Sequence record: SRR31156797_5435
Direction: 5' to 3' (one strand)
Length of the DNA stretch: 42,834 bases
The notes under the pieces were generated by a model that worked only from the letters and a program-made list of their open reading frames with translations, was not told the origin of the DNA and did no database searches. Of this stretch, positions 4,509 to 42,317 are shown piece by piece. A program made the position numbers and the translations under genes. Every line of letters starts with the position of its first letter. Positions within the stretch are counted from its first letter, which is position 1.

Positions 4509-4626
4509 AATACCCTCTTTTCCATTTCCTTATTATACGCAATTAAGTACGCAAAGAAAACGGCATTAAGAGAACTTTCGCTTTTTATTCGCTTTTCAAT
4601 GAAATCAAACAAAGGAGTCTTCTACT

Positions 4627-5742
4627 ATGAAAAAAGTTATGATTATCGGCGGTGGGATCATCGGTTTGACCCTCGCCAATTATCTTGATAAAACCAAATT
4701 TGACGTGACTGTCATTGATTCCCTCATCGGTCAAGCAACATCTGCCAGCGCTGGCATCATTTCCCCTTGGCTATCCAAACGCCGCAATAAAAAATGGTAC
4801 CAGTTAGCACAAGACGGAGCCGCTTTCTTCCCGAAATTGGTACGGGATTTTGCTTTAGATGAATCCATCTATGCCCCATGTGGCACTTTGGTAGTGCGAC
4901 CAGAAAAGGCGCTTCAAGAACTGGCAGAATTAGCTGAAAATCGACGTAAGGCGGCACCAGGAATCGGCGAAATCGACTTACTGACGGGCTCACAAACCAA
5001 AGAGGTATTGCCGTTACTAAAAGAAATGCCCTCTTTACGAATCACAGGCGGTGGCCGCTTAGATGGTCAGGCTTATCTTGCCCACTTAAAAGCAAACGCT
5101 CAGCAGCAGCAAGTGACTTTTATTGAAGAAAAAGCTGAGATCGTCAGAACCGACAACCATTGGCAAATCAAAACCAAGGATCACTTTCTTGAAACCGAGA
5201 TTCTTTGCCTGACAGCTGGACCGGGATTACTAGACTTGTTATCACCTTTAGGGTATCAGGTTGATATCCGTCCGCAAAAAGGCCAGTTGCTCTCTTTTGC
5301 CACCAACCTGCCGACAAACAGTTGGCCGGTCGCCATGCTAGAAGGCGAAGGCGACTTGATTCCCTTCTCTAATGGTCAAATGTTATTAGGCGCTACTCAT
5401 GAAAATGATGCTGGTTGGGATTTGACACCTACTGAAGCAGCCCAACAGCAATTGATGACAGGAATCGGTGCTTTTCTTGAAGACCCCGAAGCACTCTTTG
5501 CTGCCCCAATGACTATGCGAGTCGGCACACGCGCTTACACCTCTGATTTTGCGCCTTTCTTTGGGGAAGTGCCTGATGAAACGAATTTGTTCGCCGCCAG
5601 CGGGCTAGGTTCTTCCGGTTTAACGACGGGACCTTACATCGGTTATCTTCTAGCAAATCGGATCAATGAGGTACATGCGCAACCAACAGACTTCTCGTGC
5701 TACACCAAACCGATGACAGAGTATATCAAGAAGCGCCTTTGA
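4627..5742 (+). CDS. FAD-dependent oxidoreductase, D-amino-acid/glycine oxidase (DAO) family
   Basis: GGGIIG dinucleotide-binding fold, ASAGIISPW, RPQKGQ, GLGSSGLTTGP. Confidence 0.88.
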   Translation: MKKVMIIGGGIIGLTLANYLDKTKFDVTVIDSLIGQATSASAGIISPWLSKRRNKKWYQLAQDGAAFFPKLVRDFALDESIYAPCGTLVVRPEKALQELAELAENRRKAAPGIGEIDLLTGSQTKEVLPLLKEMPSLRITGGGRLDGQAYLAHLKANAQQQQVTFIEEKAEIVRTDNHWQIKTKDHFLETEILCLTAGPGLLDLLSPLGYQVDIRPQKGQLLSFATNLPTNSWPVAMLEGEGDLIPFSNGQMLLGATHENDAGWDLTPTEAAQQQLMTGIGAFLEDPEALFAAPMTMRVGTRAYTSDFAPFFGEVPDETNLFAASGLGSSGLTTGPYIGYLLANRINEVHAQPTDFSCYTKPMTEYIKKRL

Positions 5743-5754
5743 TAGGAAACCACT

Positions 5755-5788
5755 AAAAAACCACCAGAACCGTTACGGTCTGGTGGTT
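5755..5788. terminator. Intrinsic terminator between convergent genes
   Basis: AACCACCAGA/TCTGGTGGTT stem with an A6 run on the left (U-tract for the minus strand). Confidence 0.7.
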
Positions 5789-5835
5789 GTGCTGTTTGAT
5801 TCTTGTAAAATTACGGACAATTTCCTAACTACTAG

Positions 5836-6846
5836 TTAAACATATTCTCCTGTTTCCCAATAATCGAGTAAAACTTCATTGATGATCTCACGATCCAGTG
5901 GTTCACGGATATCATCATCAAAGGCATCTTCGATCGGGACATCGCCCACAGCTTTGATACAAACCGGGACGACCGGATTCGGATGATCCTCTGCTGTCAA
6001 CACTTTTTCAATCTTGATCTTATGTGTCCAATCTGCCCCCATATCATAAATATAGGTCATGGACTTACAATACTGAAAATCTTGGTCAATAGCGGACGCA
6101 TCCGTTGGAACGGAATTGCCTAAGCCGATCGATTTCGAGCCGGCAATAAACAAATACAAATGTTGATTCATCCACTCAAAGGCAATCTGGATCAAAATAT
6201 GTAGCTGTTCATAGGTCAGCCCTGCAGGAATAATCAAACGACGCCAAATTGGCGGACGGTATCCTTCTAAATCAATACGGACCTGATAGGCGACCGGCGT
6301 ATCTGCTGCGTCATCAAAGGCCGTATGTTTTGTTGGAAATGGGACGATTTTTGGCGAGATTGCAGCAATCCGTGGGTCATCAACGGGCAATAGATCATGT
6401 TCTTCGGGATCGGTGTCTTTAATCATTGCTAACATCGCTTCTTTCTTTTCAGCTGACCAAAACTGTGGTTTGGACATCCGAGCGAAAAAGATAGGTTGTT
6501 TTTCAGCCAATACAAAGGCAATTTCTAGGTATTGCGATTTGGTAATATGCTTTTCTTTATACATGCAGTAATAAAAGTCTTCAATGGCTGTTTTGGCAAA
6601 CGGAAGAAAATTTAGACTGTACGGTACTTCTTGAGGCAGCATTTCAGTATATACCCATTCAACAAAGACTTTGTCTTTTAGTTTGGTCATGCCGCCATCT
6701 GTTTCCGCGCAAAAGATCAAGTAAAAAACAGGATCTAAGTAATGCTCAAGATCGTCGTCACTAACCACACTGGGTCCGCCATACAAATCAACGTGATCCA
6801 TCATCCGGTCAATCACTTTCGCTAATTTCTTCAATGTTTTTTCCAA
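5836..6846 (-). CDS. pRiA4b ORF-3 family protein with an uncharacterised N-terminal domain
   Basis: C-terminal YQVRIDLEGYRPPIWRRLIIP...LHILIQIAFEW...HLYLF...YIYDMGADWTHKIKIEK. Start set at TTG 6846 (SD AAGGAG), which avoids overlap with adcA. Confidence 0.85.
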   Translation of the reverse strand: MEKTLKKLAKVIDRMMDHVDLYGGPSVVSDDDLEHYLDPVFYLIFCAETDGGMTKLKDKVFVEWVYTEMLPQEVPYSLNFLPFAKTAIEDFYYCMYKEKHITKSQYLEIAFVLAEKQPIFFARMSKPQFWSAEKKEAMLAMIKDTDPEEHDLLPVDDPRIAAISPKIVPFPTKHTAFDDAADTPVAYQVRIDLEGYRPPIWRRLIIPAGLTYEQLHILIQIAFEWMNQHLYLFIAGSKSIGLGNSVPTDASAIDQDFQYCKSMTYIYDMGADWTHKIKIEKVLTAEDHPNPVVPVCIKAVGDVPIEDAFDDDIREPLDREIINEVLLDYWETGEYV

Positions 6847-6911
6847 AAAAATCTCGCTCCTTCCTATCAAGTTTACTTTGACGAAAAGAGCGAGGATTGT
6901 CAATCTTTTTT

Positions 6912-8450
6912 TTAATGGGAGAGCATTTCCTGTGCAATTTCTAATCCGCTCATCCCCGTTGGGTAATAGGTCGGCCAATGCTCCATTTCCTCTAGTAACG
7001 CTTCATGACTCTCGTTGCCAAAGTAGATATGGAAATGATGTGAAGCACCTGGTGCGATCATATGGTCGCTAAATTGGATATATTTGAACGCCGCATCTTC
7101 ATCGGTGCTTTCAAATAAGAAGCGTACGCCACGATTACCAGCTGAGTAGTTCAAAACCTCTTTGCCAGTATACACATACTTGGCTTCTTTCTCTGTACCA
7201 TCATCAAAAATAAATGTCATTGTATTGTCTGTGATCTTGATCTGAGCAACATCCGTTTGATACCCTGTCGTATAATACTCTTTGTATTCGTCAGCTGTCA
7301 TTTTCTTGTCCATTTTTGCTTTATAATCAAACACTTGATCCAATGTTCCGTCTTGTAAAAATGGGTAAACGGATTGCCAGTCTCCTGCCCAGTCAGATAA
7401 AGGACGGTCTTGTACATCGGCATCCTCAAAGTAGCCGTTATAAACTGTTTTTTCTTTTTCGGCTTCAGCCATTTCTTTGTCATTTGCTACATCGGTGGTT
7501 TTTCTCAAGGCATCGCGGTTTTGCTCCATAATTGAAATGTAGTCTTCCCCGTTATCCATCTGCTCTTGGGTCAAGCCTTCTAATGGGTTCAAAACAGCTA
7601 ATTCAACTCCTGCTTCTGACGCTAACGTCCGGGCAATGCTGTCTTTGGCATTTTCTTCAAAATAGATCGTCTGAATGCCTGTTTCTTGAACGAACTCTTT
7701 TAGTTCTGCGATCCGTGAAGCGGAAGGCTCTTCACTTGGTGAAAGACCGGAGATCGGAACTTGGGTCAATCCGTATTCTAAAGCTAAATAACCAAAAGCG
7801 GCGTGCTGCGTTACAAAATGATTTTGCGCCGGATTGCTAAATGCTTCTTCATACGATTCATGAAGATCTTGTAATTGTGCTAAATAATTTGCCGCATTTT
7901 CAGCAAAGGCTGTCGCTTTCGCTGGATAAGCCTCACTCAGCTGGTCACGGATCGCCTCTACTTGTTTCATGGCTAAGCTTGGGGCTAACCAGACATGGGG
8001 ATCTAATTCATGAGAATGACCATCATCGCCGTGGTCGTGATCGTGGTCGTGGTCATCGTCACCGGGTAACAGGACCATTCCTTCTGTGGCTTTAACCACT
8101 GTCACATCCCCGTCATTTAACGTGGCTTCAATCGAAGGAACCCACATTTCCATGTTCTCATTGTTGTAGACGAAAACATCCGCATCTTGGATCTTTGCCA
8201 TATCTTTTGCAGAAGGTTCATAATCGTGGGAATCAGTGCCTGCGGGCATCAATAATTCAACCTCCCCTTCATCCCCTACAACTTGACGAGCAAAATCATA
8301 CATCGGATAAAACGTAGCCATGACCTGGATTTGTTCATTATCAGAAGCAGCGTTGCCTGATTGTTCAGTTGCATCAGAGCCTCCTTGTCCACAGGCCGCC
8401 AAAGCTAGGGCTACTGTTGATAACATCGTTATTTTAAAAAACTTCTTCAT
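6912..8450 (-). CDS. adcA: Zinc ABC transporter substrate-binding lipoprotein AdcA (ZnuA domain + ZinT domain)
   Basis: Lipobox LAAC, DSHDYEPS, His-rich loop then DPHVWL, C-terminal ZinT domain (DWAGDWQSVYP, HFHIYFG, WPTYYP...EMLSH). ATG 8450 with SD AAGGAG. Confidence 0.95.
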   Translation of the reverse strand: MKKFFKITMLSTVALALAACGQGGSDATEQSGNAASDNEQIQVMATFYPMYDFARQVVGDEGEVELLMPAGTDSHDYEPSAKDMAKIQDADVFVYNNENMEMWVPSIEATLNDGDVTVVKATEGMVLLPGDDDHDHDHDHGDDGHSHELDPHVWLAPSLAMKQVEAIRDQLSEAYPAKATAFAENAANYLAQLQDLHESYEEAFSNPAQNHFVTQHAAFGYLALEYGLTQVPISGLSPSEEPSASRIAELKEFVQETGIQTIYFEENAKDSIARTLASEAGVELAVLNPLEGLTQEQMDNGEDYISIMEQNRDALRKTTDVANDKEMAEAEKEKTVYNGYFEDADVQDRPLSDWAGDWQSVYPFLQDGTLDQVFDYKAKMDKKMTADEYKEYYTTGYQTDVAQIKITDNTMTFIFDDGTEKEAKYVYTGKEVLNYSAGNRGVRFLFESTDEDAAFKYIQFSDHMIAPGASHHFHIYFGNESHEALLEEMEHWPTYYPTGMSGLEIAQEMLSH

Positions 8451-8597: not shown

Positions 8598-8778
8598 CAG
8601 CTTTTCAAGATGTTTTTTTATATGTAAAAACTTTCATATGTACCACTGCTGATATCATTATTAACTTACTGAATGGATCGGTTGATTCGGCAACAATCGG
8701 CAAATGACGAAAATCGCTATCTATTGTCCTTTGTCGCCTCCTGTGCTACACTCGAGGGGTAATTGAATACAAGATTAT

Positions 8779-8861
8779 CCACTAGGGGCGCTTTATGCTG
8801 AGATAGACGTATGTCTGGTCCCTTAGAACCTGATTTGGTTAGTACCAACGTAGGGAAGTGG
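8779..8861 (+). ncRNA. TPP riboswitch (THI element)
   Basis: CCACTAGGGG...GCTGAGA...CCCTTAGAACCTGATTTGGTTAGTACCAACGTAGGGAAGTGG with P1 CCACT/AGTGG; upstream of thiamine transport genes. Confidence 0.95.
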
Positions 8862-8877
8862 CAGCGCATGATTTTTC

Positions 8878-8932
8878 GCGTTCCCATTTTTTCTGTCTAC
8901 GTGTGGATAGAAAAAGGAGGAACGCTTTTTTT
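8878..8932 (+). terminator. Attenuator terminator of the TPP riboswitch
   Basis: GCGTTCC...GGAACGC closing a long stem followed by T7. Confidence 0.75.
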
Positions 8933-8967
8933 GTAGACAGAAAAACCATCGAGAGGAGAAGAGAAAA

Positions 8968-9591
8968 ATGACAAATGAACCAATCGCCTGTGCGGCAGAT
9001 GGGATCGATATCACGGGGTGCCGAGTTAGCTTGTACCCAATGAAAGACCATTTCGCGCAACAAATTTTAACAAGTATCGAAAAAACGAATACGAGCGCTG
9101 TTTGGCAGCAGACCGATCTGTTCAGTACCCTTTTTCGAGGGGAAGCGCCTAGTGTCATAGACGCAGCAGAGGCGCTATTTATCAACGCCTACGAATCAAA
9201 GACACACCTCGTGGGTGAGTTTACTTTTTCCAAAGGCTGTCCCGGAGACAGTGCGGGTGACACATTCTTGAATGGCGAACAGGCGCAACCCAATAAAGGA
9301 AAGAACCTAGCGAATGGTGACTTTTTGGTTGATTGCAAATATTCGTTTTACGTATTTGGCGAAAATCATTATATGGAAGAAATCGCCACGATCGTCCAGC
9401 TGGCAGAGACTCATGGCTTGAGCCCTCGTTCTGCTCACTATGTGACGATGCTGACCGGATCAGCAAGCCAACTCTTTGCTTATTTTGAAGCCGCATTAGC
9501 TTATGCCCATGACCATCTCCCCCACTATGTTCTGGAAGCGACTGTTTCGGTCAACAGCCCTTCAAAAAAGGAGGCGATGCCACGTGACTAA
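8968..9591 (+). CDS. ykoF: YkoF-family thiamine/HMP-binding protein
   Basis: GCRVSLYPM, FSKGCPGD and SVNSPS motifs; first gene after the TPP riboswitch. Confidence 0.88.
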   Translation: MTNEPIACAADGIDITGCRVSLYPMKDHFAQQILTSIEKTNTSAVWQQTDLFSTLFRGEAPSVIDAAEALFINAYESKTHLVGEFTFSKGCPGDSAGDTFLNGEQAQPNKGKNLANGDFLVDCKYSFYVFGENHYMEEIATIVQLAETHGLSPRSAHYVTMLTGSASQLFAYFEAALAYAHDHLPHYVLEATVSVNSPSKKEAMPRD

Positions 9592-10186
9592 GTGGGCTTT
9601 GAAAGATGTCATCATGGTAGGAATTGCTTCGTTGATTTTTGGCGTGATCTATCTTGGGGCTGTCCATTTCGGATTGTTGTTAGGTACGCTTCTAACGCCC
9701 TTTGGTTTATCTGTCTTAGCCAATGAGTTTATCTTTGGTGTTTGGTTCATGGCGGCAGCTTTTGCCGGATATGTGCTACGTAAGCCGGGAGCAGCTACGA
9801 TCACTGAAATGATTGCGGCTCTTTTAGAAGTGTTTATGGGAAATTTTTATGGACCTATCATTTTTATTAGCGGTTTTGTACAGGGGATCGGAACAGAAGC
9901 CGGTTTTGCATTAGGCCGCTACCGACGATACGGGTGGTTCCCTTTAGTTACTGGAGCCGTGGGCGCCACGATCACGAGTTTTCTTTGGGGAATCATTCGG
10001 TCAAATTTCATTAACCTACAATGGCAGTTGCTGTTGGCGATCTTTCTTATTCGCTTGCTTTCTTCGTTATTCTTTTCAGCCTTTTTAGTGAAGATCGTCT
10101 GTGACCACTTGACACGGATGGGGGTCCTCAACAGTTACCCCATTGCTGAAGATCAAACGGTCATCGTCAAACGGAAAACCGCATGA
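9584..10186 (+). CDS. ykoE: ECF transporter S component YkoE (thiamine/HMP)
   Basis: KWALKDVI start (GTG 9584, SD AAGGAGG), GVWFMA, RKPGAA, VQGIGTE; multi-TM. Confidence 0.88.
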   Translation: MTKWALKDVIMVGIASLIFGVIYLGAVHFGLLLGTLLTPFGLSVLANEFIFGVWFMAAAFAGYVLRKPGAATITEMIAALLEVFMGNFYGPIIFISGFVQGIGTEAGFALGRYRRYGWFPLVTGAVGATITSFLWGIIRSNFINLQWQLLLAIFLIRLLSSLFFSAFLVKIVCDHLTRMGVLNSYPIAEDQTVIVKRKTA

Positions 10187-11595
10187 GCCTGTCGGTAAAA
10201 AACGGCAGTTTTTTGGTGGATCAAAAGCGACTTGAATTGACTCTGTCTTTGGCCCCTGGTGAAACAAAAGGGATTTATGGTGCTTCAGGAACAGGAAAAA
10301 GCACCCTTTTCCATCTCTTAGCGGGACTAAATGAGAAGGGGTTTGATGGAGGGACGTATACGATTGACGGCCAAACGATGAACCAGCTTTCCATCCGGGA
10401 AAGAAGCACGTCCGTCAGCTTATTGTTTCAAAATCCTGATATGCAATTTTGCATGGCAACACCGCGAGAAGAGTTGCTTTTCTGTTTAGAGAATCAATGT
10501 ATTTCCCAAAAAGACATGCCAAACAAAGTGGCTGAAGCTTTGGCATTTTGCGAGATTACCCACCTTGCTGATCAACCTTTCACGACCTTGTCTGGTGGTG
10601 AAAAACAGCTAGCCGCATTGGCTTGTTGTCTGATATTAAAAAGTCGTTACTTGCTTTTGGACGAACCCTTTGCCAATTTGGATTCGGACACAAGTCAAAA
10701 AGTCATACGAAAACTGCAGCAAATCCAACACAAAAATGCTCTTGGTATTTTATTGATCGATCATCAAATCAAAGAGACCGCTAACTGGGTCGATGAGTGG
10801 CTGCTGATTGAAGAGGAATTCAGAACGATCAATCAAGCAGCGCTCCGCCAACTTGATCAGCACCTACGCAAGTCGCTGCCGCTTGTGAACATTAAATCGA
10901 CTTCTAACGAAAAACGGCTTTCATTTCAAAATTTCCGATTACCCATCCGAAACCATGAAATTGTTTTCCCAGATCTTGCCTTTGATAAGGGCTCACTGAT
11001 TGGAATCACTGGACGTAGCGGCAGCGGCAAGTCTTCGTTTTTAAAAGCTATTTTACAGCAGCAGGCCTATAAAGGGGATATTCTTTTGGCAGGTAAACTA
11101 ATCAAGAAGTATCCGTCACCTTTTCGCTCCATCAGTTGGATCATGCAAAATCCGCAAGACCAATTTTTGGCAGCTACCGTTGCGCAAGAGCTTAGCCAAG
11201 GAAGCGCCCCGACCGAGAGCGACAAACTACTCGAAAAATTGCGTCTGCAAAACAAGAGTGCCCAGTCGCCTTTTCTACTGAGTCAAGGACAGCAACGGCG
11301 CTTGGCTGTTGCCTCCTTACTGCAGCGCCCGGTCGACCTACTGCTAGTAGACGAGCCGACATATGGTCAAGATGTCACACAAGCTTGGCAGATCATGGAG
11401 CTATTAGCTGCTAAAGCAACCACTGGCACGTTAGTTTTGATCGTTAGTCACGATGTCTTATTGTTGCAACAGTTTTGCTCGCAAATCATTGATTTCAATT
11501 GCTATCAAAAGGAGGTCGCAGATGCGTACACTCAATCCCACAGTCAAGTTATTCGCCATTTTAGGACTCGCCTTAGTGGTTTCTTTTCAAAATAA
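10183..11595 (+). CDS. ykoD: ECF transporter duplicated ATPase YkoD
   Basis: Two Walker A motifs (GASGTGKS, GRSGSGKS), two QNP Q-loops, LSGGEKQ and LSQGQQRR, DEP Walker B motifs. Confidence 0.88.
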   Translation: MSLSVKNGSFLVDQKRLELTLSLAPGETKGIYGASGTGKSTLFHLLAGLNEKGFDGGTYTIDGQTMNQLSIRERSTSVSLLFQNPDMQFCMATPREELLFCLENQCISQKDMPNKVAEALAFCEITHLADQPFTTLSGGEKQLAALACCLILKSRYLLLDEPFANLDSDTSQKVIRKLQQIQHKNALGILLIDHQIKETANWVDEWLLIEEEFRTINQAALRQLDQHLRKSLPLVNIKSTSNEKRLSFQNFRLPIRNHEIVFPDLAFDKGSLIGITGRSGSGKSSFLKAILQQQAYKGDILLAGKLIKKYPSPFRSISWIMQNPQDQFLAATVAQELSQGSAPTESDKLLEKLRLQNKSAQSPFLLSQGQQRRLAVASLLQRPVDLLLVDEPTYGQDVTQAWQIMELLAAKATTGTLVLIVSHDVLLLQQFCSQIIDFNCYQKEVADAYTQSHSQVIRHFRTRLSGFFSK

Positions 11596-12202
11596 TTTCA
11601 GATTGAATTTATTGCTCTCTGTCCTATTCTTCGTTATTACTGTAAAAGAGCGCTCCTTGAAAAAAAGTCTTTTGCTCTTTTCTGCATTAACACTGGCAGC
11701 TGTTGGGGTCTTTTTCACTGGTCTCCTTTACTATCAAGACCATCAAGGCGCTCCCTCCTCAACGGCAGCTATTCACTATGGGCTTGACATGGCGAGCCGA
11801 ATCTACTGCTTCGGTATTCTGGGAAGTTCTTTCAGTGTGACGACCACGATCAATGAATTGATTTATTCGCTGCAGCAACAGCTGCACCTGCCTGCCGTTT
11901 TTGCGTACGGTCTGCTCGCTGCGTTTCAAATTGCTCCGATCATTCCAGCAGAGTATCAAAACATCCGCAATAGCATGCGTTCCAGAGGAATCTCAGTCAA
12001 TTCGTTTTCTTTCAAAATGTTGATTCCTTTACTCGTCAAATCCATTCGCTGGTCCGAACTTTTGGCGACGGCAATGCTTTCAAGAGGTTTCGACGGTGAA
12101 GGAACGCGAACTTATGCCAAGACATTTCGAATCACTTTTATGGATACGCTGTTTTTATCCTTATGTTTGATGGTGGGACTTGGCGGAACACTCATCCTAT
12201 AA
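11522..12202 (+). CDS. ykoC: ECF transporter T component YkoC
   Basis: LNPTVKL start (ATG 11522, SD AGGAGG), RSRG and AMLSRGF...RT coupling motifs. Confidence 0.88.
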   Translation: MRTLNPTVKLFAILGLALVVSFQNNFRLNLLLSVLFFVITVKERSLKKSLLLFSALTLAAVGVFFTGLLYYQDHQGAPSSTAAIHYGLDMASRIYCFGILGSSFSVTTTINELIYSLQQQLHLPAVFAYGLLAAFQIAPIIPAEYQNIRNSMRSRGISVNSFSFKMLIPLLVKSIRWSELLATAMLSRGFDGEGTRTYAKTFRITFMDTLFLSLCLMVGLGGTLIL

Positions 12203-12215
12203 AGGGGAAAGAGAC

Positions 12216-12254
12216 AAAAAGACAAAGAAACGTAAGGGTTTCTTTGTCTTTTTT
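12216..12254. terminator. Bidirectional intrinsic terminator
   Basis: 16-bp stem AAAAAGACAAAGAAAC/GTTTCTTTGTCTTTTT between convergent genes. Confidence 0.85.
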
Positions 12255-12264
12255 CATTGATTTA

Positions 12265-12783
12265 TTAAGAAGTGATCGTCTTTTTTACTGAACCAGATTT
12301 GATTTGGTAAAACGTAACAAACATCGTCGTTGCTAATATATACAAGGCGAAAAGAAGATACATGTTTTTAAACAGCTGGATCGTCGTTTGGTTCAACCAG
12401 GCCCCTACTTTAGGAATATAAAATATCGGCTGGCCAATCAATTGACTTTTTTGAATTTCGTTTGGTTCCATCTGATTTTGATTGTCGCCAATGGTGTAGA
12501 GCACCGATTGATTTTCCCCAACCGCAACGATTCGCCGCGTCCGCATCTGTCTACCTTGATCAACATAATACGTTACTTCGTTGCCAACCACTAAATTATC
12601 TTCAGAAGCTTTTTTTACAAAAAGGAGTGTCCCTTCAGAATATGTCGGTTCCATTGCATCACTAGCAACAATAGCCATTGTGAAACCAAACGCATGTGGG
12701 ATCACCACAATTAGTACAGACAGCAGCATGAACATCAGTACAAAAAGTGAGAGCATGATACTTTGTTTTGGAAAAAGCTTCAT
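12265..12783 (-). CDS. SipW-type (S26B) signal peptidase I homologue, catalytic residues substituted
   Basis: N- and C-terminal TMs; VASDAMEP (cf. VLSGSMEP), GNEVTY (cf. GDVITF), TRRIV (cf. THRIV), TIGDN (cf. TKGDN), IPKVG. Confidence 0.85.
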   Translation of the reverse strand: MKLFPKQSIMLSLFVLMFMLLSVLIVVIPHAFGFTMAIVASDAMEPTYSEGTLLFVKKASEDNLVVGNEVTYYVDQGRQMRTRRIVAVGENQSVLYTIGDNQNQMEPNEIQKSQLIGQPIFYIPKVGAWLNQTTIQLFKNMYLLFALYILATTMFVTFYQIKSGSVKKTITS

Positions 12784-12961
12784 TTTCTATTCTCCTTCTA
12801 AACCTCAGTTTCTTTTATGATTCTATAACATAACTCTATTTTTTTCAAACATTTAAAAACGTTTCGTTGAATTTTTATACGAAGATTACTCGATTATTAT
12901 TTGACTTTATTTAATTATTTATATTATGCTAAAGGCGATTAAAAAACAGAGGAGAAAAAGT

Positions 12962-14803
12962 ATGCCTTTTTTAAATAACAAGTTTTTTTTAAAGCGTTGG
13001 ATTCCCTTCATCCTTCTGGTCCTATTTTTACTGGGAAGTATTGTCTTTTTTCTCGTTCTTTTTTTATTCCCAACTTCTGATATCCATGCAGTGGAGAAAA
13101 AGGAAGACTGGATTTTCTATGCTGAGGACAATCCCGAATCTACTTTTATTAGCCGTTATGTGAAACATTTACCTAGTGTAAAAGCCAATGATCGTTTTGT
13201 GATGAAGCGAAAAATGACCAACGATTATAAATACCCTACAATGTTACTAATTGGCGATCATCAACACATGACTGTCTATCTCGATGATCAAGAAATTTAC
13301 ACCAACGATGAGCCCAATGATCCACTGACTCTCAATCATCCAGGCAAAACATTGTCTTTTATCACCTTGCCTGAGGATTATGTTGGTAAAACCTTGAAAA
13401 TATACGTGACTAGTCCTTTTGACACCTATTCTGGCTTCCCAGCAGAAGTCTTTTTTGGCCCTGCAAATGCACTGATCGGCTATGTCTTCAGTCTGTCAAT
13501 TTTAAATATTTACATTCTTTTATTTACTGGTTTTATTTGTATCATCAATTTATTTTATGTCTTAGTTTCTTTTATCAATCAACGAAGGCTGAAAATATCT
13601 TCTCTCTTATTCAGCGGCTTTGCCTTAACAGCAGGCTTGGAAGCAGGCTTCAGCGATATGCTTGGTGGACTACTGTTTCCCCCAATCGTCAACTCTGTAA
13701 TGTTAAATATTCTTTCTATTATTACACCAATGTTTTTGATCGGCTTTTACTGCACGAATATGCATTTTATTCGCAAGTACTACCAGAAATGGTTATACTT
13801 TCACTATTCATTCGGTCTGTTAGCGATACTTTTCGCACTTTTCCAAGCACAAAGTTTGCCCGTCATCATGAATTATATGTTCTTGTTGAATATTACCAGT
13901 ACCTTCGTTACTTCTTTTGCAGCAATTTATGAAGCATTGAAAAAAAATCCTTTTTATGTCATTTGTGCGCCTTGGATCGTGATTGCGGCTATCGGTCATT
14001 GTTTCTTGTATATTCAGGATATTTTAGTTTTGCCACAATCTGATATCAATTGGCGTTCGATCATCTTTTTCTTATTAATTATCATTTTTACTTGCTACGG
14101 CTTCCTTGAACTCTTTTTTGCCAGCGAGGGTAAAAATAAGCAGATCGATACGGCAGACATCAAAGTGCGTTTATATGAGAATCAACAAGCGATCAGCCCT
14201 GAACAAACGTTAAAATGGCAGCAAGTTTTACGGACCATCAAACAAAGAACCCATACGGTCAAGGATATGTTAGAAGATCAGCAGTTGGCAGCGGCCTATG
14301 AAGGCCTTAGTGAGATTGAAGAACAGATCAAGCAGCAGTTAACGAGTCCTTCCGTTGAAAAAGAATCACTCACGACGATGCTGCTTGCTAATTATAAACA
14401 CACAGCTGCTCAAAAAAGGATCACCTTTGCCTGTGATGGCATCATAGAACCACTGGAACAATTGGCGGAAAATGATCGTCTATCCTTGATCGCTCATTGC
14501 CTAGAGTACGCCATCCGATACACTTGTGCGGTCACTGATCCTCAAAAGCGAAGACTCGCGTTGAGGGTGAATGACACGAACGGCCAGTTGCATATCGACT
14601 GCCAAATGCCGCTTCTCTCAAATGAAGAAGCAGAAAAACTACAGAACAATGAAACCAAACGACAGGCGATGCAGGCTGACATGCAAATGCTAGAACAACT
14701 TTGTTTAGCCTACCAAGGAAGTATCCGGATTGAAGAAACTGACGGGCTTCACCTCTTGCATTTGACACTTAGGGCGAAAATAGATCCGCTGTCTTTCGAC
14801 TGA
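12962..14803 (+). CDS. Membrane sensor-like protein: extracellular domain + about 7 TM + degenerate GHKL (HATPase_c_5-like) domain
   Basis: N-terminal TM, extracellular beta-rich domain (HMTVYLDDQEIY, ITLPEDYVGKTLKI), multi-TM block, coiled region, C-terminal GHKL-like fold (LSLIAHCLEYAIRY...RRLALRV...YQGSIRIE). ATG 12962 with SD AGGAG. Confidence 0.7.
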   Translation: MPFLNNKFFLKRWIPFILLVLFLLGSIVFFLVLFLFPTSDIHAVEKKEDWIFYAEDNPESTFISRYVKHLPSVKANDRFVMKRKMTNDYKYPTMLLIGDHQHMTVYLDDQEIYTNDEPNDPLTLNHPGKTLSFITLPEDYVGKTLKIYVTSPFDTYSGFPAEVFFGPANALIGYVFSLSILNIYILLFTGFICIINLFYVLVSFINQRRLKISSLLFSGFALTAGLEAGFSDMLGGLLFPPIVNSVMLNILSIITPMFLIGFYCTNMHFIRKYYQKWLYFHYSFGLLAILFALFQAQSLPVIMNYMFLLNITSTFVTSFAAIYEALKKNPFYVICAPWIVIAAIGHCFLYIQDILVLPQSDINWRSIIFFLLIIIFTCYGFLELFFASEGKNKQIDTADIKVRLYENQQAISPEQTLKWQQVLRTIKQRTHTVKDMLEDQQLAAAYEGLSEIEEQIKQQLTSPSVEKESLTTMLLANYKHTAAQKRITFACDGIIEPLEQLAENDRLSLIAHCLEYAIRYTCAVTDPQKRRLALRVNDTNGQLHIDCQMPLLSNEEAEKLQNNETKRQAMQADMQMLEQLCLAYQGSIRIEETDGLHLLHLTLRAKIDPLSFD

Positions 14804-14899
14804 CCGTCTTGCTACATTAGTTTTAAAGGAGCGATTTTAAGAAAAAGCGAAAAAACTCTTGCTTTTTTCGCTTTTTCGCTTTAGCATGATAAAGAACAG

Positions 14900-15131
14900 C
14901 AACAAGCATTGGAATAGTAGTTTTATGATGGTCTTAGAGAGTCGATGGCAGCTGAAAAATCGACACCCACTGATAAAATGAACCTACCCAATGGCAATGA
15001 CCGCAAAACGGTCGGTGGAAAGGCCTTATCCTTTACGAGTTGGATTATCCCGATAGATAATCAACAAAGGTGGTACCGCGAAATCCAAGCATTTCGTCCT
15101 TTTTTAGGACGAGATGCTTTTTTATTTTTTT
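14900..15131 (+). promoter_or_regulatory. Proline T-box riboswitch
   Basis: Stem I AGAGAG...GCTGAAA motifs, specifier GAA-CCT-A (Pro codon 14983-14985), T-box AAAGGTGGTACCGCG (15066-15080), terminator AGCATTTCGTCCT...AGGACGAGATGCT with a T-run. Confidence 0.92.
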
Positions 15132-15145
15132 AAGGAGGAAAAAGA

Positions 15146-16579
15146 ATGACACAAAAAAATGATTTTACAGAATGGTATATCCAAACGATCCAAAAAGCCG
15201 AATTGATGGCTTACTCCCCAGTGAAAGGCTCCATTATTTTCCGTCCTGACGGCTTCGAACTTTGGGAGCATATCCAAGAAGAGTTCAATCGATTCTTGAA
15301 AAAAGAGGGCATTCGTAATGCGTACTTCCCAATGCTGATTCCGCAAAATTTCTTTATGAAAGAAGCCGATCATATTGAAGGTTTTGCGCCTGAATTGCCA
15401 TGGGTCACAGAAGTCGGCAATGAAAAATTGGAAGAACCTTTGGCCTTGCGTCCAACCTCAGAAACCATGATTGGCTCTGCCTTTTCTGATTGGATCAACT
15501 CTTACCGTGACCTGCCTTATGAAATTAATCAATGGGCAAACGTCTTTCGTTGGGAAAAGAAAACATTGCCTTTCTTGCGTACCTCAGAGTTTTTATGGCA
15601 AGAAGGCCATACCGCTCATGAAAACGAAGAAGATGCACGTCAACGCACCATGAAAATCTTGGATGAATATGCCCGCCTTTGCGAAGAATTCCTAGCGATC
15701 CCTGTTTATCGCGGACAAAAAACCCCTTCTGAGCGTTTTGCTGGAGCAGTTGATACTTATTCGATCGAAGCGATGATGAAAGACGGCAAAGCAGTCCAAG
15801 CAGGAACCAGCCACTACATGGGGACAAAATTTGCTGAAGCATTTGATATTACGTATTTAACGAAAGAAAACAAGCATGTCCATGCCCACACAACCTCTTG
15901 GGGTGTCTCTACCCGCTTGTTGGGGGCCTTGATCATGACCCATGGCGATGAAAATGGGTTAGTTTTCCCACCAACCATTGCACCAACCCAAGTTGTGTTG
16001 TTACCAGTCGGTCCATGGAAAAAGAATCCAGCCATCTTAGAAAAATTAGAAGAACTGTATGCTAACTTTAAAGCCAAGGGCATTCGTGTTCGATTGGATG
16101 ATTCTGATAACTCACCTGGCTATAAGTTCAATGAATGGGAACTAAAAGGCGCTTGCTTGCGAATCGAATGTGGCCCAAGAGATTTAGAAGCTGGCAAAGT
16201 GATGGTCAAAGTCCGCGACTTGGCTGACAAGCAAACAGTCGCCCTTGAGCACTTGGAAGCCTTCGTTGATCAAGAACTGCAAGCAATGCCCCCACGCTTA
16301 TTGGCAGCTGCGAAGGAACGTAACAAAGATAATGAGTACACCAACATCGATACATTGGATGAACTAAAAGCCCATATCGAAACGTGCAAACAAGAAGACA
16401 AAGTGACTGGCTTTGTTTTGATCGGTTGGGACGGCTCGGAAGAAACGGAAGCGAAAATCAAAGAAGAAACCGGCTTTACTACCCGAAACATTCCGTTTGA
16501 AGCACCAATGGAAAAAACAGTCGATATCGTCAGTGGCAAACCTGCCAAGCATACCGTTTGGATCGCCCGCGCATACTAA
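15146..16579 (+). CDS. proS: Proline--tRNA ligase, archaeal/eukaryotic type (no INS editing domain)
   Basis: DFTEWY, LRPTSET, QWANVFRWE...PFLRTSEFLWQEGHTAH, QAGTSHY, SWGVSTRL, anticodon domain, C-terminal ARAY; 477 aa. Confidence 0.96.
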   Translation: MTQKNDFTEWYIQTIQKAELMAYSPVKGSIIFRPDGFELWEHIQEEFNRFLKKEGIRNAYFPMLIPQNFFMKEADHIEGFAPELPWVTEVGNEKLEEPLALRPTSETMIGSAFSDWINSYRDLPYEINQWANVFRWEKKTLPFLRTSEFLWQEGHTAHENEEDARQRTMKILDEYARLCEEFLAIPVYRGQKTPSERFAGAVDTYSIEAMMKDGKAVQAGTSHYMGTKFAEAFDITYLTKENKHVHAHTTSWGVSTRLLGALIMTHGDENGLVFPPTIAPTQVVLLPVGPWKKNPAILEKLEELYANFKAKGIRVRLDDSDNSPGYKFNEWELKGACLRIECGPRDLEAGKVMVKVRDLADKQTVALEHLEAFVDQELQAMPPRLLAAAKERNKDNEYTNIDTLDELKAHIETCKQEDKVTGFVLIGWDGSEETEAKIKEETGFTTRNIPFEAPMEKTVDIVSGKPAKHTVWIARAY

Positions 16580-16582
16580 TAG

Positions 16583-16624
16583 AAAAAACGAAGCAGCCAG
16601 ATTGAAAAGGCTGCTTCGTTTTTT
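16583..16624. terminator. Bidirectional intrinsic terminator
   Basis: 16-bp stem AAAAAACGAAGCAGCC/GGCTGCTTCGTTTTTT between proS and lplA. Confidence 0.88.
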
Positions 16625-16626
16625 GA

Positions 16627-17631
16627 TTAATAAATCAATGAAAGAAAATCTTCAGGCGTGATGTTGCCAAAATATTTTTTAACATCAATGTTGGCGATGA
16701 CTTGTGCCAAATCTTCCTTGGCATAACGAGTTCCGATCAGGGCTTGTTCGACATCTGCAATGTCCCCTAGTCCGAAAAAGTCGCCAAAGATTTTGGCATC
16801 CGTGATTTTTCCTTCTGCCACATTCAAACGAACTTCGATGGAGCCGATTGGGAAGCGATGACGGCGTTCAATATCAAAAGCTGGTGATTTACCGTAATTC
16901 CAATCCCAGTTGCGATAATACTTATCGGAAATCTCATTGATCTTGACCCAATCCTCTTCAGTCAGTTCATAGGTTTTGACTTCTTCCACGGAATCGACAC
17001 CAAAAATCTTCAATAAGATTTCTTGACGGAACTCTTCAGTCGTCATGTCTTGCTTCTCTTTTGGCAAGAATGGTTTGATGTTTGTCACTCTTGAGCGGAT
17101 CGATTTGATGCCTTTTGATTCGATTTTGTCTTTGCGGACTTTCAAGGCGTTGACCACTTCATTGATGTCACTGTCAAACATGATCGTCCCATGAGCAAAC
17201 ATCCGGCCATTCGTTGCGTACATCGCATTCCCAGAAAACTTCATGTCATTGATCACAAGGTCGTTGCGCCCTTTTAGTTGCGCCCCTTCAACCCCCATCT
17301 CATGCAAGGCTTGGACGATTGGTTTGGTCAGTTTTTCAAAATCTCTGAAAGAATTGCCATCGTCAGGCATAATAAAGCTGAAATTCAAGTTTCCGAAATC
17401 ATGATAGACTGCACCGCCGCCGCTGAAACGACGAACGACATGAATCCCATGTTCATCCACATATTCCTTATTGATCTCTTCGATCGTATTTTGATTGCGT
17501 CCAATGATAATCGATGGTTCATTAATGTAAAAAAGTAAGATGGGTTCATCCACTTTCATTTCTTGAAGAAGAAAAATCTCGATGGCTAAATTGATGCGTG
17601 GATCGTTCAGTTCATTCGGTACAAAAAGCAT
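16627..17631 (-). CDS. lplA: Lipoate--protein ligase
   Basis: IGRNQN, RRFSGGGAVYHD, KFSGNA, HGT, KSIRSRVTNI, WDWNYGKSP, GDFF. Confidence 0.95.
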   Translation of the reverse strand: MLFVPNELNDPRINLAIEIFLLQEMKVDEPILLFYINEPSIIIGRNQNTIEEINKEYVDEHGIHVVRRFSGGGAVYHDFGNLNFSFIMPDDGNSFRDFEKLTKPIVQALHEMGVEGAQLKGRNDLVINDMKFSGNAMYATNGRMFAHGTIMFDSDINEVVNALKVRKDKIESKGIKSIRSRVTNIKPFLPKEKQDMTTEEFRQEILLKIFGVDSVEEVKTYELTEEDWVKINEISDKYYRNWDWNYGKSPAFDIERRHRFPIGSIEVRLNVAEGKITDAKIFGDFFGLGDIADVEQALIGTRYAKEDLAQVIANIDVKKYFGNITPEDFLSLIY

Positions 17632-38704: not shown

Positions 38705-38720
38705 TTGAGGAGGATTGCTG

Positions 38721-42308: not shown

Positions 42309-42317
42309 GAGGAACCG

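What the first reader, a model, noticed from the sequence alone, without database searches (positions are those of the whole stretch)
12265..14803. Divergent pseudo-peptidase/pseudo-kinase cassette: candidate undescribed non-catalytic membrane signalling module
Seen: the two apparently dead enzymes are head-to-head across a 178-bp very AT-rich spacer. They are bounded by a bidirectional terminator on the left and the proS T-box promoter on the right, so they form a self-contained two-gene unit between housekeeping loci. Neither has a frameshift or premature stop. Inference: losing active-site residues in both while keeping 172 and about 613 codons intact suggests selection for a joint non-enzymatic function. 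One possibility is a co-receptor pair that binds signal peptides or pilin/TasA-like precursors and modulates a paralogous SipW + GHKL/LytTR surface-fibre system elsewhere. This is my best candidate for a new system in the window.
Basis: inference. Interest (0 to 1): 0.78.

Follow-up and report, generated by a model that had tools for sequence, protein, structure and literature searches.

The report
Dead peptidase beside dead sensor kinase
Two neighbouring Enterococcus membrane-protein genes descend from a signal peptidase and a sensor kinase, have lost their catalytic residues yet are kept by selection, and whether they work together remains unproven.

Summary
At 12265-12783 (-) lies a 172-aa SipW/SEC11-type signal peptidase I homologue. 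Its nucleophile Ser is Ala and its general-base His is Arg. At 12962-14803 (+) lies a 613-aa, 8-helix membrane receptor. Its cytoplasmic end is a decayed AgrC-class (SPOB_a + HATPase_c_5) histidine-kinase core with no phospho-acceptor His, N-box Asn or G-box glycines. The genes diverge across a 178-bp spacer (24% GC) holding two conserved sigma-A-like promoters, between a bidirectional terminator and the proS T-box leader.

Both are under purifying selection (dN/dS 0.04-0.05 and 0.07-0.10). The kinase-like gene belongs to an Enterococcus-wide clade that lost the His first, then the ATP motifs, then in one branch the DHp helices. The ectodomain and 7TM core stayed constrained throughout.

Evidence that the two act jointly is thin:
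- They are adjacent in 9 of 9 loci, but inside a fully syntenic block.
- Both carry nonsense mutations in one E. gallinarum strain.
- The complex prediction gives only weak support.
- There is no gene-specific co-evolution signal.

I rate this a new variant of known kinds (SipA-like pseudo-peptidase, DivL-like pseudo-kinase), of moderate interest.

The parts
12216..12253 (.). Bidirectional intrinsic terminator. A 16-pair hairpin with an A run on one side and a T run on the other closes the ykoF-ECF operon and the peptidase-like gene.
   Evidence: One search reports the same stem-loop as terminator-like on both strands.
12265..12783 (-). 172-aa non-catalytic homologue of ER/archaeal-type (SipW/SEC11) signal peptidase I. 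It has an N-terminal anchor helix, an extracytoplasmic peptidase-fold domain, a C-terminal helix and a short conserved basic tail.
   Evidence: (TIGR02228 55.2 bits vs 51.85). dN/dS is 0.04-0.05.
12655..12657 (-). Codon for Ala43, at the position of the catalytic Ser (box B, SGSMEP in active enzymes, SDAMEP here).
   Evidence: Alignment to SEC11A and to active SipW-type enzymes. Ala in 9 of 9. In loci, Ala in 6 of 7 and Tyr in 1 of 7.
12535..12537 (-). Codon for Arg83, at the position of the catalytic His (box D, xHR in active enzymes, TRR here).
   Evidence: Arg in 9 of 9 and in 7 of 7 loci.
12784..12961 (.). 178-bp divergent control region at 24% GC. Two back-to-back sigma-A-like promoters are conserved; the sequence between them varies and carries insertions in other species.
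   Evidence: (alignment of 8 spacers, 178-208 bp, GC 0.20-0.24).
12820..12848 (-). Promoter-like site for the peptidase-like gene (TTGAAA, 17 nt, TAGAAT; 10 of 12 matches).
   Evidence: Both hexamer blocks fall in the conserved columns.
12901..12930 (+). Promoter-like site for the kinase-like gene (TTGACT, 18 nt, TATGCT; 9 of 12 matches). Its -10 box overlaps the upstream ATG at 12926, which argues for the start at 12962.
   Evidence: TTGACTT and TATTATxCTA are conserved in 8 of 8 spacers.
12962..14803 (+). 613-aa membrane receptor with a decayed histidine-kinase core (a pseudo-kinase). AGGAG lies at 12950-12954.
   Evidence: dN/dS is 0.07-0.10.
12989..13459 (+). N-terminal anchor helix (residues 10-35) and an all-beta extracytoplasmic domain (residues ~44-166).
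   Evidence: AlphaFold2 secondary structure. dN/dS of residues 41-166 is 0.02-0.06.
13463..14137 (+). Seven-helix membrane domain (residues 168-392). It is the most conserved part and is distantly related to 7TMR-DISM_7TM receptors.
   Evidence: The family profile aligns over the 7TMR-DISM_7TM domain of P0173. One search gives a lead only. dN/dS is 0.05-0.08.
14198..14341 (+). DHp-like helical hairpin (residues 413-460) without a phospho-acceptor His.
   Evidence: (DesK DHp+CA as top fold matches).
14369..14773 (+). CA-like alpha/beta domain (residues 470-604). The N-box reads AHCLEYAIRY in place of NLLDNAIEA. The G-box reads QADMQ in place of HGYGL.
   Evidence: Selection is relaxed but still purifying: dN/dS 0.22-0.32.
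14843..14880 (+). Hairpin followed by a U run. It is the likely terminator of the kinase-like gene.
   Evidence: MFE -24.2 kcal/mol for 14800-14895, z -2.2. The consensus scan did not flag it.
14900..15104 (+). T-box leader of proS. It marks the right boundary and is not part of the pair.
   Evidence: RF00230, 101.8 bits.

Best explanation
SHOWN. The locus encodes two intact, separately promoted, divergently transcribed membrane proteins. Both are catalytically dead descendants of enzymes, and selection keeps both.

(1) The first is a SipW/SEC11-type signal peptidase I homologue. Its nucleophile Ser is Ala (Tyr in one species) and its general-base His is Arg. The fold-defining boxes, both membrane helices and a basic cytoplasmic tail are conserved.

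(2) The second is an 8-helix receptor: anchor helix, beta-rich ectodomain, then a 7TM bundle distantly of the 7TMR-DISM kind. Its cytoplasmic end is a decayed AgrC-class kinase core that cannot accept phosphate (no His) and lacks the ATP/Mg-binding N- and G-box residues.

INFERRED. The pair forms a non-enzymatic membrane module.
- The peptidase-like subunit acts as a binder that cannot cleave. Its Ser-to-Ala change is the same substitution used in the laboratory to trap a signal peptide on SEC11A. Its ligand would be a signal-peptide-like or secreted peptide segment.
- The receptor's ectodomain and 7TM core do the sensing or scaffolding.
- Any output goes through protein-protein contacts of the kinase remnant, not through phosphotransfer.
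For: Peptidase-like protein:
- It matches TIGR02228 above cut-off and aligns to SEC11A/C (E 1e-6 to 3e-5).
- Ser->Ala and His->Arg hold in 9 of 9 orthologues. In loci the nucleophile position is never Ser (0 of 7) and the His position is Arg in 7 of 7.
- Active SipW-type enzymes aligned alongside keep SGSM and xHR.
- The SEC11A triad is Ser56/His96/Asp122 (passages read). SEC11A S56A co-purifies with a signal peptide (passages read).
- dN/dS is 0.040-0.047. The C-terminal tail residues Y159 Q160 I161 K162 S165 K167 I170 are invariant in 9 of 9.

Kinase-like protein:
- The profile search gives 1883 relatives at E<=1e-3.
- Of 31 full-length relatives scanned, 26 carry HATPase_c_5.
- The fold of residues ~410-604 matches DesK and other DHp+CA cores (60 PDB matches at E<=1e-3).
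- His, Asn and Gly motifs are replaced in all 11 close homologues and in 4 further relatives.
- dN/dS by domain: ectodomain 0.02-0.06, 7TM 0.05-0.08, CA-like 0.22-0.32.

Expression: both promoter blocks are conserved across 8 spacers while the rest of the spacer varies.

Coupling:
- The genes are adjacent and divergent in 8 of 8 genome-contig loci that have upstream DNA (L007 is cut off) and in one E. gallinarum record.
- In that record both genes carry a single-base nonsense change (TGG->TAG and CAA->TAA) against a 97.4% identical strain, with no indels in either coding region.
- Complex prediction (receptor residues 1-400 with the peptidase-like protein) returned 'weak support': score 0.37, best of 3 controls 0.04. 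The runs agree in at least 55% of contacts and partner pLDDT is at least 69. The mark was reached by 51 of 78 solved complexes and 2 of 108 mismatched pairs. At 0.60 or under it was reached by only 5 of those 78 and by all 4 mismatches that passed (of 180). Of neighbouring genes drawn blind, 7 of 44 reached it.
Against: The whole block (ykoF, ECF S/A/T, pair, proS, lplA) is syntenic in every locus examined. Adjacency therefore gives no independent evidence of coupling.

Distances of the two proteins correlate (r 0.94), but the partial correlation given the neighbouring ecfT is only 0.19.

By the tool's own calibration, a complex score this low is more often wrong than right unless the guess was already likely. 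No contacts were reported and the alignments were not used.

The genes are not in one operon. No ligand, partner regulator or target is visible in the window.

The double nonsense strain shows the pair is dispensable in at least one background. Truncated members also occur in the E. faecium cluster.

The kinase remnant is eroding: CA-like dN/dS is 0.22-0.32, and three other Enterococcus species have forms lacking the DHp stretch. That argues against an output role for it.

I could not find out whether the orthologues in E. faecium, E. canis, E. nangangensis, E. florum and others have a peptidase-like neighbour.

The structure model of the peptidase-like protein was poor (pLDDT 54), so a retained binding groove is assumed, not shown.
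Confidence: 0.42

Rival explanations
1. Two unrelated pseudoenzymes are neighbours only by descent. Each has its own non-catalytic job. The receptor's ectodomain and 7TM core might act as a sensor, scaffold or transporter-like protein. The peptidase-like protein might act as a chaperone or regulator of secretion. The divergent arrangement is an inherited accident of a stable chromosomal block.
For: The entire ykoF-ECF / pair / proS / lplA block is syntenic in all loci. The genes have separate promoters and are not an operon. There is no gene-specific co-evolution signal (partial r 0.19). The complex prediction is only weak. The receptor family is Enterococcus-wide (E. faecium, E. canis, E. nangangensis, E. 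florum and others), whereas peptidase-like relatives were found only in the casseliflavus/gallinarum-related group. That search is word-limited, so it cannot show absence.
Against: Both genes carry nonsense mutations in the same E. gallinarum strain, within 2.8 kb that is otherwise 97.4% identical. The pair survives intact at 45-60% protein identity. The complex score is 0.37 against 0.04 for the best control (weak).
Confidence: 0.36
2. The genes are relics in slow decay. They are the remains of an ancestral signal-peptidase and sensor-kinase system, now without function and not yet erased.
For: The kinase core decays stepwise along the tree: His lost first, then the N and G boxes, then a DHp deletion. 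The CA-like domain is relaxed (dN/dS 0.22-0.32). One strain has both genes knocked out by nonsense changes. Truncated cluster members exist.
Against: dN/dS is 0.04-0.10 for whole genes, and 0.02-0.08 for the ectodomain and 7TM, at unsaturated dS (0.42-0.44 for window vs L002). These values are similar to the neighbouring ecfT (0.07-0.09). The reading frames are intact in 7 of 7 and 8 of 8 genomic loci at up to 55% protein divergence. The promoters are conserved.
Confidence: 0.08
3. One or both proteins are still enzymes using other residues. The peptidase might use a different nucleophile. The kinase-like domain might bind a nucleotide in a non-canonical way.
For: Several polar residues are invariant near the former sites: D42, T47, Y48, E106 and S113 in the peptidase-like protein; H512, R519, D526 and D573 in the CA-like domain. 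Two early-branching relatives (P0029 and E. canis P0032) keep the N and G boxes and may still bind ATP.
Against: Ser41, two residues before the lost nucleophile, is not conserved (S/R/T/N). The nucleophile position tolerates Ala or Tyr. No Pfam or NCBIfam kinase model matches at E<0.07. Both G-box glycines and both N-box asparagines are gone in 15 of 15 close relatives.
Confidence: 0.07

Closest known systems
SipA (LepA) of Streptococcus pyogenes pilus islands
   Same: Both are signal peptidase I homologues that keep the fold and a peptide-binding cleft but lack the catalytic residues, and both act non-enzymatically at the cell surface. [quoted passage not shown]
   Different: SipA is a P-type (bacterial Ser-Lys) homologue. 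The window protein is ER/archaeal type (Ser-His, TIGR02228) with a C-terminal membrane helix. SipA sits among pilin and sortase genes, and none are here. The replacements also differ (Ala/Arg here).
SipW of Bacillus subtilis and SEC11 of eukaryotes (active ER-type signal peptidases)
   Same: They belong to the same family by sequence and share the N-anchor, luminal domain and C-terminal helix architecture. SipW is reported to have a second, regulatory role in surface-adhered biofilm formation. I saw only the title of Terra et al. 2012 in a reference list, the paper is not held, and the detail that this role is independent of catalysis is recalled. SEC11A S56A holds a signal peptide without cleaving it.
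   Different: The window protein scores 49 bits against the SipW equivalog model, whose cut-off is 190. It lacks the Ser and His of the triad. It has no TasA-like neighbour, unlike the E. faecium plasmid SipW-TasA pair.
AgrC-class (HPK10) sensor kinases: ~600-aa ectodomain + 7TM + SPOB_a + HATPase_c_5 proteins of Clostridia and other Bacillota
   Same: Homology runs the full length (E down to 7e-54 for intact members such as the Vallitalea kinase P0036). Domain order and the predicted fold of the cytoplasmic core are the same.
   Different: The H-box His, the N-box Asn residues and the G-box glycines are replaced. No Pfam kinase domain is detectable. No response regulator lies nearby.
DivL of Caulobacter and other histidine-kinase-derived pseudokinases
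   Same: Both are kinase-derived proteins that signal by protein contacts rather than phosphotransfer. For DivL I saw the search listing and abstract starts of PMC4211667 and PMC5361649. RetS signalling by binding GacS is recalled, and its kinase region was among the fold matches (6dk7).
   Different: DivL keeps an ATP-binding domain and has known partners. Here the ATP motifs are gone, the domain is eroding, and no partner is known.
7TMR-DISM receptors
   Same: Both have an N-terminal extracytoplasmic domain followed by seven membrane helices and a variable cytoplasmic output. The family profile aligns over the Pfam 7TMR-DISM_7TM domain of a GGDEF-HD protein (P0173, E 1.7e-9). The same sensor module is found with SpoIIE and HisKA outputs.
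   Different: The window protein itself has no Pfam 7TMR-DISM match at E<=1. No 7TMR-DISMED2 ectodomain was detected in any relative scanned.

Membership tests
Signal peptidase I, ER/archaeal type (TIGR02228; MEROPS S26B by recall) | Sequence match to the family model above its curated cut-off | tested here: met
   TIGR02228 gives 55.2 bits against a cut-off of 51.85, over residues 11-151. Pfam Peptidase_S26 gives 25.5 bits against 22.9, but only over residues 16-62.
Signal peptidase I, ER/archaeal type (TIGR02228; MEROPS S26B by recall) | Box B catalytic Ser (SEC11A Ser56) | tested here: not met
   SDAMEP aligns to SGSMEP. The position is Ala in 9 of 9. In loci it is Ala in 6 of 7 and Tyr in 1 of 7. 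The triad is defined.
Signal peptidase I, ER/archaeal type (TIGR02228; MEROPS S26B by recall) | Box D catalytic His (SEC11A His96) | tested here: not met
   TRR aligns to VHR/SHR/THR. The position is Arg in 9 of 9 and 7 of 7.
Signal peptidase I, ER/archaeal type (TIGR02228; MEROPS S26B by recall) | Box E GDN motif and the acidic third triad residue | tested here: inconclusive
   GDN is kept (D100 N101 invariant). The SEC11A alignment places the Asp121/122 stretch in a gap. The alignment with bacterial SipW-type enzymes puts the invariant Glu106 at their Asp.
Signal peptidase I, ER/archaeal type (TIGR02228; MEROPS S26B by recall) | Cleavage of signal peptides | not testable with these tools
   This needs an enzyme assay.
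SipW (NF046067 equivalog) | Score above the equivalog cut-off | tested here: not met
   49.1 bits against a cut-off of 190.
SipW (NF046067 equivalog) | Neighbouring TasA/camelysin-type substrate gene | tested here: not met
   The window has none. A true enterococcal SipW-TasA pair on an E. faecium plasmid serves for contrast.
SipA/LepA-type pilus-assembly pseudo-peptidase | P-type signal peptidase fold, encoded among pilin and sortase genes | tested here: not met
   The best model is the ER/archaeal type; TIGR02227 (bacterial type) gives 35.9 bits against 47. No sortase or pilin gene lies beside it. An LPXTG surface-protein gene sits 11 kb away at 556-948.
AgrC-class (HPK10) histidine kinase, HATPase_c_5 (PF14501) with SPOB_a-type DHp | Detectable HATPase_c_5 / HATPase_c domain | tested here: not met
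   No Pfam match at E<0.07. 26 of 31 full-length relatives have one.
AgrC-class (HPK10) histidine kinase, HATPase_c_5 (PF14501) with SPOB_a-type DHp | Homology and fold of the DHp + CA core | tested here: met
   Profile hits to ~430-aa and ~600-aa kinases cover residues ~350-605. Foldseek finds DesK and other cores at E 1e-5 upward, with target TM-scores of 0.4-0.57. The model's mean pLDDT is 70, and 80-91 over the CA-like part.
AgrC-class (HPK10) histidine kinase, HATPase_c_5 (PF14501) with SPOB_a-type DHp | Phospho-acceptor His in the H-box | tested here: not met
   The column holds T/R/Q/D/L/K and others, never His, in the 11 close homologues and in 10 further His-less relatives.
AgrC-class (HPK10) histidine kinase, HATPase_c_5 (PF14501) with SPOB_a-type DHp | N-box Asn and G-box Gly-x-Gly (ATP/Mg binding) | tested here: not met
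   AHCLEYAIRY and QADMQ stand in place of NLLDNAIEA and HGYGL.
AgrC-class (HPK10) histidine kinase, HATPase_c_5 (PF14501) with SPOB_a-type DHp | Cognate (LytTR) response regulator encoded nearby | tested here: not met
   The 42.8-kb window has no response regulator, and the tblastn map shows none between ECF and lplA in the related loci. The rest of the genome was not seen.
7TMR-DISM receptors | Pfam 7TMR-DISM_7TM match | tested here: inconclusive
   The window protein has no match. Five kinase relatives (P0051, P0053, P0054, P0061, P0099) match below the gathering score, and P0173 passes (30.6 bits against 29). The Atlas gives a lead at 0.94, where 11% of a cluster carry the family.
7TMR-DISM receptors | Extracytoplasmic domain followed by seven membrane helices | tested here: met
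   In the AlphaFold2 model, strands span residues 50-166 and helices span 168-392.

The most novel reading that the evidence does not exclude
The pair is a dedicated two-pseudoenzyme receptor of Enterococcus. A natural Ser-to-Ala 'substrate-trap' signal peptidase holds a signal-peptide-like ligand without cleaving it. The ligand could be a secreted peptide or pre-protein, or the receptor's own N-terminal signal-anchor with its conserved Pro and short c-region-like stretch. The bound or unbound state passes through the 7TM bundle to a kinase remnant that signals by binding, not by phosphorylation. That would be a way of monitoring secretion or peptide signals that has not been described.
Probability: 0.15. 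Interest if true: 0.75.

Novelty: new variant of a known kind. Interest (0 to 1): 0.5.

Why it matters
Pseudoenzymes kept under selection mark functions that annotation hides. Here the peptidase-like gene passes the NCBIfam signal peptidase I model, so it would likely be named an active enzyme (my inference). The receptor is named 'hypothetical', 'ATP-binding protein', 'sensor histidine kinase' or even 'MFS transporter' in different species.

The receptor family is present across Enterococcus, including E. faecium, where its cluster has 1576 member sequences. It shows an unusually clean stepwise decay of a kinase core while the sensor half stays constrained. That makes it a good natural case for asking what a sensor kinase does after it stops being a kinase.

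If the two proteins do form a complex, it would extend the SipA precedent for a non-cleaving signal peptidase to the ER-type branch and link it to signalling. If they do not, the finding is two separate, ordinary-sized annotation corrections.

Tried and rejected
- Structure of the peptidase-like protein. AlphaFold2 on the 9-sequence alignment gave mean pLDDT 54, below 50 over residues 59-117. I ran no fold search on it and make no claim about its groove.
- PDB sequence-profile search with the receptor family found nothing meaningful (best E 0.09).
- Mirror-tree test over 7 species and 21 pairs. The two proteins correlate at r 0.94, but so does everything in the block. The partial r given ecfT is 0.19, so the test is uninformative.
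- More distant peptidase-like relatives, for example in E. faecium. The word-limited profile search gave 17 hits. All are close relatives except one active-type enzyme, P0207. This cannot show absence.
- tblastn against plasmid records, looking for a paralogous SipW + kinase system. It found only the same locus in an E. gallinarum record, an E. faecium plasmid SipW-TasA pair without a kinase, and a weak Acetoanaerobium hit that I did not follow.
- The receptor's N-terminus as a cleavable signal peptide. The hydrophobic stretch is about 24 residues long. The short stretch after the conserved Pro ends in A/S/T only in the casseliflavus/gallinarum-related group, not in E. faecium or in the intact kinases. 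I kept this as speculation only.
- The careful tree search did not finish in 300 s, so I used the quick IQ-TREE tree with SH-aLRT support. Rows left out of the tree: P0008 (N-terminally short), all fragments, and 15 of the 45 intact full-length relatives.
- dN/dS for distant species pairs is saturated (dS above 1.5 or undefined), so I did not use it.
- Literature. Searches turned up no paper on this pair or on an ER-type pseudo-signal-peptidase in Enterococcus, judged from listings and abstract starts. The one 'GHKL' hit in E. faecium concerns a different, Pfam-positive kinase, fsrC'.

Full report
WHAT IS THERE. The window comes from the Enterococcus casseliflavus group: the receptor protein is 100% identical to an E. 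entomosocium entry, and locus L001 of that species is 99% identical. Between a TPP-riboswitch-controlled ykoF-ECF transporter operon (8774-12202) and a T-box-controlled proS (leader 14900-15104) lie two intact genes on opposite strands. One is a 172-codon ORF at 12265-12783 (-). The other is an ORF at 12926-14803 (+).

All 11 homologues of the long ORF begin at the ATG at 12962, giving 613 aa. An AGGAG lies 8 nt upstream of that ATG. The conserved -10 box of its promoter overlaps the ATG at 12926. I therefore take 12962 as the start, which leaves a 178-bp spacer at 24% GC. On the left, a 16-pair hairpin at 12216-12253 scores as a terminator on both strands. On the right, a hairpin with a U run at 14843-14875 follows the stop codon.

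THE PEPTIDASE-LIKE GENE. The protein passes the NCBIfam model for archaeal/ER-type signal peptidase I (TIGR02228, 55.2 bits, cut-off 51.85). It falls far below the SipW equivalog (49 bits against 190) and below the bacterial-type model. A profile of nine orthologues finds human SEC11A and SEC11C as the only meaningful solved relatives (E 1.4e-6 to 3.4e-5).

In those alignments the box B SGSMEP reads SDAMEP and the box D IVHRV reads RTRRI. SEC11A works through Ser56, His96 and Asp122 (passages read). The best-scoring PDB chain is the S56A mutant. Ala43 and Arg83 are invariant in 9 of 9 orthologues down to 59% identity. Taken from genomic loci, the nucleophile position is Ala in 6 of 7 and Tyr in 1 of 7, never Ser. 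The His position is Arg in 7 of 7. Two active SipW-type enzymes aligned alongside keep SGSM and S/T-H-R.

GDN and an invariant Glu106 at the likely acid position remain. The protein keeps an N-terminal and a C-terminal hydrophobic helix and a basic tail, YQIK-G-xK, that is largely invariant.

THE KINASE-LIKE GENE. No Pfam or NCBIfam model matches. The AlphaFold2 model (mean pLDDT 70) has these parts:
- an anchor helix (residues 10-35);
- a beta-rich ectodomain (~50-166);
- seven membrane helices (168-392);
- two long helices (413-460);
- an alpha/beta domain (470-604, pLDDT 80-91).

Foldseek matches the cytoplasmic end to DesK and many other DHp+CA kinase cores (60 PDB matches at E<=1e-3).

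A profile search of 1.84 billion representatives gave 1883 hits at E<=1e-3. I scanned 50 of the 150 listed against Pfam:
- 26 of 31 full-length ~600-aa proteins carry HATPase_c_5, often with SPOB_a and a weak 7TMR-DISM_7TM match;
- 12 of 12 proteins of ~430 aa carry HATPase_c_5;
- three others join the same sensor half to SpoIIE, to HisKA-REC, or to GGDEF-HD outputs.

In a motif alignment the intact kinases read l-R/K-H-E/D, LLxNLLDNAIEA and HG-Y/F-G. The window protein reads VLRTIKQ, LIAHCLEYAIRY and QADMQ. Of 80 full-length proteins (540-660 aa) aligned, 45 have all three motifs. All 11 close homologues and 4 further relatives have none.

A quick tree of 51 rows places all 21 His-less proteins on one side of a branch (SH-aLRT 99). 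The three that keep the ATP motifs, or part of them (P0029; E. canis P0032; E. nangangensis P0049, partly), branch first. The 18 fully decayed ones form a clade with support 100. Inside that clade a sub-branch (Enterococcus sp. CSURQ0835, Ca. E. moelleringii, E. florum) has also lost the DHp stretch. Every named member of the His-less side is an Enterococcus, including E. faecium with a 1576-member cluster.

SELECTION AND EXPRESSION SIGNALS. Among the three closest species, NG86 dN/dS is 0.040-0.047 for the peptidase-like gene and 0.070-0.096 for the receptor. dS is unsaturated for the nearest pair (0.42-0.44). By domain, the ectodomain gives 0.02-0.06, the 7TM 0.05-0.08, the DHp-like part 0.04-0.08 and the CA-like part 0.22-0.32. 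The neighbouring ecfT gives 0.07-0.09 and proS 0.03-0.10. Both frames are intact in all genomic loci examined, at up to 55% protein divergence.

In the alignment of eight spacers the two promoter blocks are conserved, while the sequence between them varies and carries insertions. Expression itself was not tested.

ARE THEY A PAIR? For:
- The genes are adjacent and divergent in 8 of 8 genome-contig loci that retain upstream DNA (the ninth is cut 180 nt upstream), and in an E. gallinarum record.
- In that record both genes carry one nonsense substitution each (TGG->TAG near Trp277; CAA->TAA at codon 76), relative to a 97.4% identical strain in which both are intact. There are no indels in either coding region.
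- Complex prediction returned 'weak support' for receptor residues 1-400 with the peptidase-like protein. The score was 0.37 against a best control of 0.04; runs agreed in at least 55% of contacts; partner pLDDT was at least 69.
- For calibration, the mark was reached by 51 of 78 solved complexes and 2 of 108 mismatches. Scores of 0.60 or under were seen in only 5 of those 78 and in all 4 passing mismatches (of 180). Of blind neighbour pairs, 7 of 44 passed.

Against:
- The whole ykoF-ECF / pair / proS / lplA block is syntenic in the same loci.
- The two proteins' distances track each other no better than they track ecfT (partial r 0.19).
- They are not co-transcribed.
- I could not determine whether the receptor's orthologues in E. 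faecium, E. canis and others have such a neighbour.

I put the joint-module reading at about 0.4 and independent functions at about 0.35.

MECHANISM. Shown: neither protein can carry out its ancestral chemistry by the canonical route, and both are constrained. In the receptor the constraint falls mainly on the ectodomain and 7TM half.

Inferred: the peptidase-like protein binds but does not cleave. This draws on S. pyogenes SipA, which has lost its catalytic residues, keeps its cleft and is essential for pilus assembly (abstract). It also draws on SEC11A S56A, which co-purifies with a signal peptide. The receptor senses or scaffolds through its outer and membrane parts. Any output is by contact, as in kinase-derived pseudokinases such as DivL (listing only). 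The eroding CA-like domain and the DHp-less forms suggest the cytoplasmic remnant may matter least.

COMPARISON AND NOVELTY. Each half has precedents: SipA for dead signal peptidases, and DivL or RetS for non-phosphorylating kinases. Neither half is a member of its parent family by the defining catalytic features, which were tested and not met.

Three things I found in no paper listed or 69:
- an ER-type (SipW/SEC11-branch) pseudo-peptidase;
- the Enterococcus-wide stepwise decay of a 7TM-GHKL kinase;
- their conserved pairing.

I rate this a new variant of known kinds.

Noticed in passing
L011 (NZ_CP116511.1, E. gallinarum K205-4a) 4247-6812; compare L008 5247-7800: Both genes of the pair carry a single-base nonsense change in this strain (TGG->TAG and CAA->TAA). 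They are annotated as four 'hypothetical proteins'. The 484-kb record is typed as a non-mobilizable plasmid yet carries the adcA / ykoF-ECF / pair block that lies on multi-Mb chromosomal records in other species (L005 3.2-Mb scaffold, L009 complete chromosome). It may be a chromid or a mis-assigned chromosome piece.
   Followed up: partly
window 10183-14803 against 15146-17631; L002, L003: Between the three closest species, synonymous divergence of the ECF genes and the pair (dS 0.42-1.26) is about 3-5 times that of the adjacent proS and lplA (0.11-0.23). The boundary falls near the T-box leader. Possible causes are recombination that homogenised proS-lplA, or an older and more diverged left-hand segment. 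This remains unexplained.
   Followed up: no
L004 (JBMDXW010000376.1, 1840 bases): A contig labelled as a Chryseobacterium MAG encodes the same pair at 95% protein identity to the window. It is most likely an Enterococcus contig binned into the wrong genome.
   Followed up: no
L010 (E. faecium plasmid NZ_CP040905.1) 6565-9420: A real SipW-type signal peptidase I (SGSM, SHR) lies directly upstream of a TasA family protein and near a sigma-70 family factor on a mobilizable 198-kb plasmid. This suggests an enterococcal TasA-type fibre module on a plasmid.
   Followed up: partly
window 8774-12202: A TPP riboswitch (83.6 bits) is followed by ykoF, an ECF S component, a fused double ATPase and a T component. 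This is a thiamine/HMP-salvage ECF operon. The T-component ORF overlaps the ATPase gene by 143 nt as listed, but its real start is probably the internal Met near 11522.
   Followed up: partly
window 15146-16579: The T-box-controlled ProRS is of the archaeal/eukaryote-like 'family I' type (TIGR00408, 531 bits), not the usual bacterial type.
   Followed up: no
window 37475-40660: A three-gene cluster of unnamed proteins: an SPFH/Band-7 protein with a C-terminal zinc ribbon, a zinc-ribbon protein, and a TPM-domain protein. An ABC exporter and an excisionase-type HTH gene follow at 40758-42755.
   Followed up: no
window 5836-6978 and 556-948: A PRiA4_ORF3-domain protein and a small EF2685/EF0750-family sortase-dependent surface protein. 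Neither is near the pair.
   Followed up: no
P0035, P0039 (Enterococcus sp. CSURQ0835, Ca. E. moelleringii): The short, DHp-less orthologues of the receptor are named 'MFS transporter' by their source, although they share the ectodomain + 7TM sensor architecture. This is probably a mis-annotation.
   Followed up: partly
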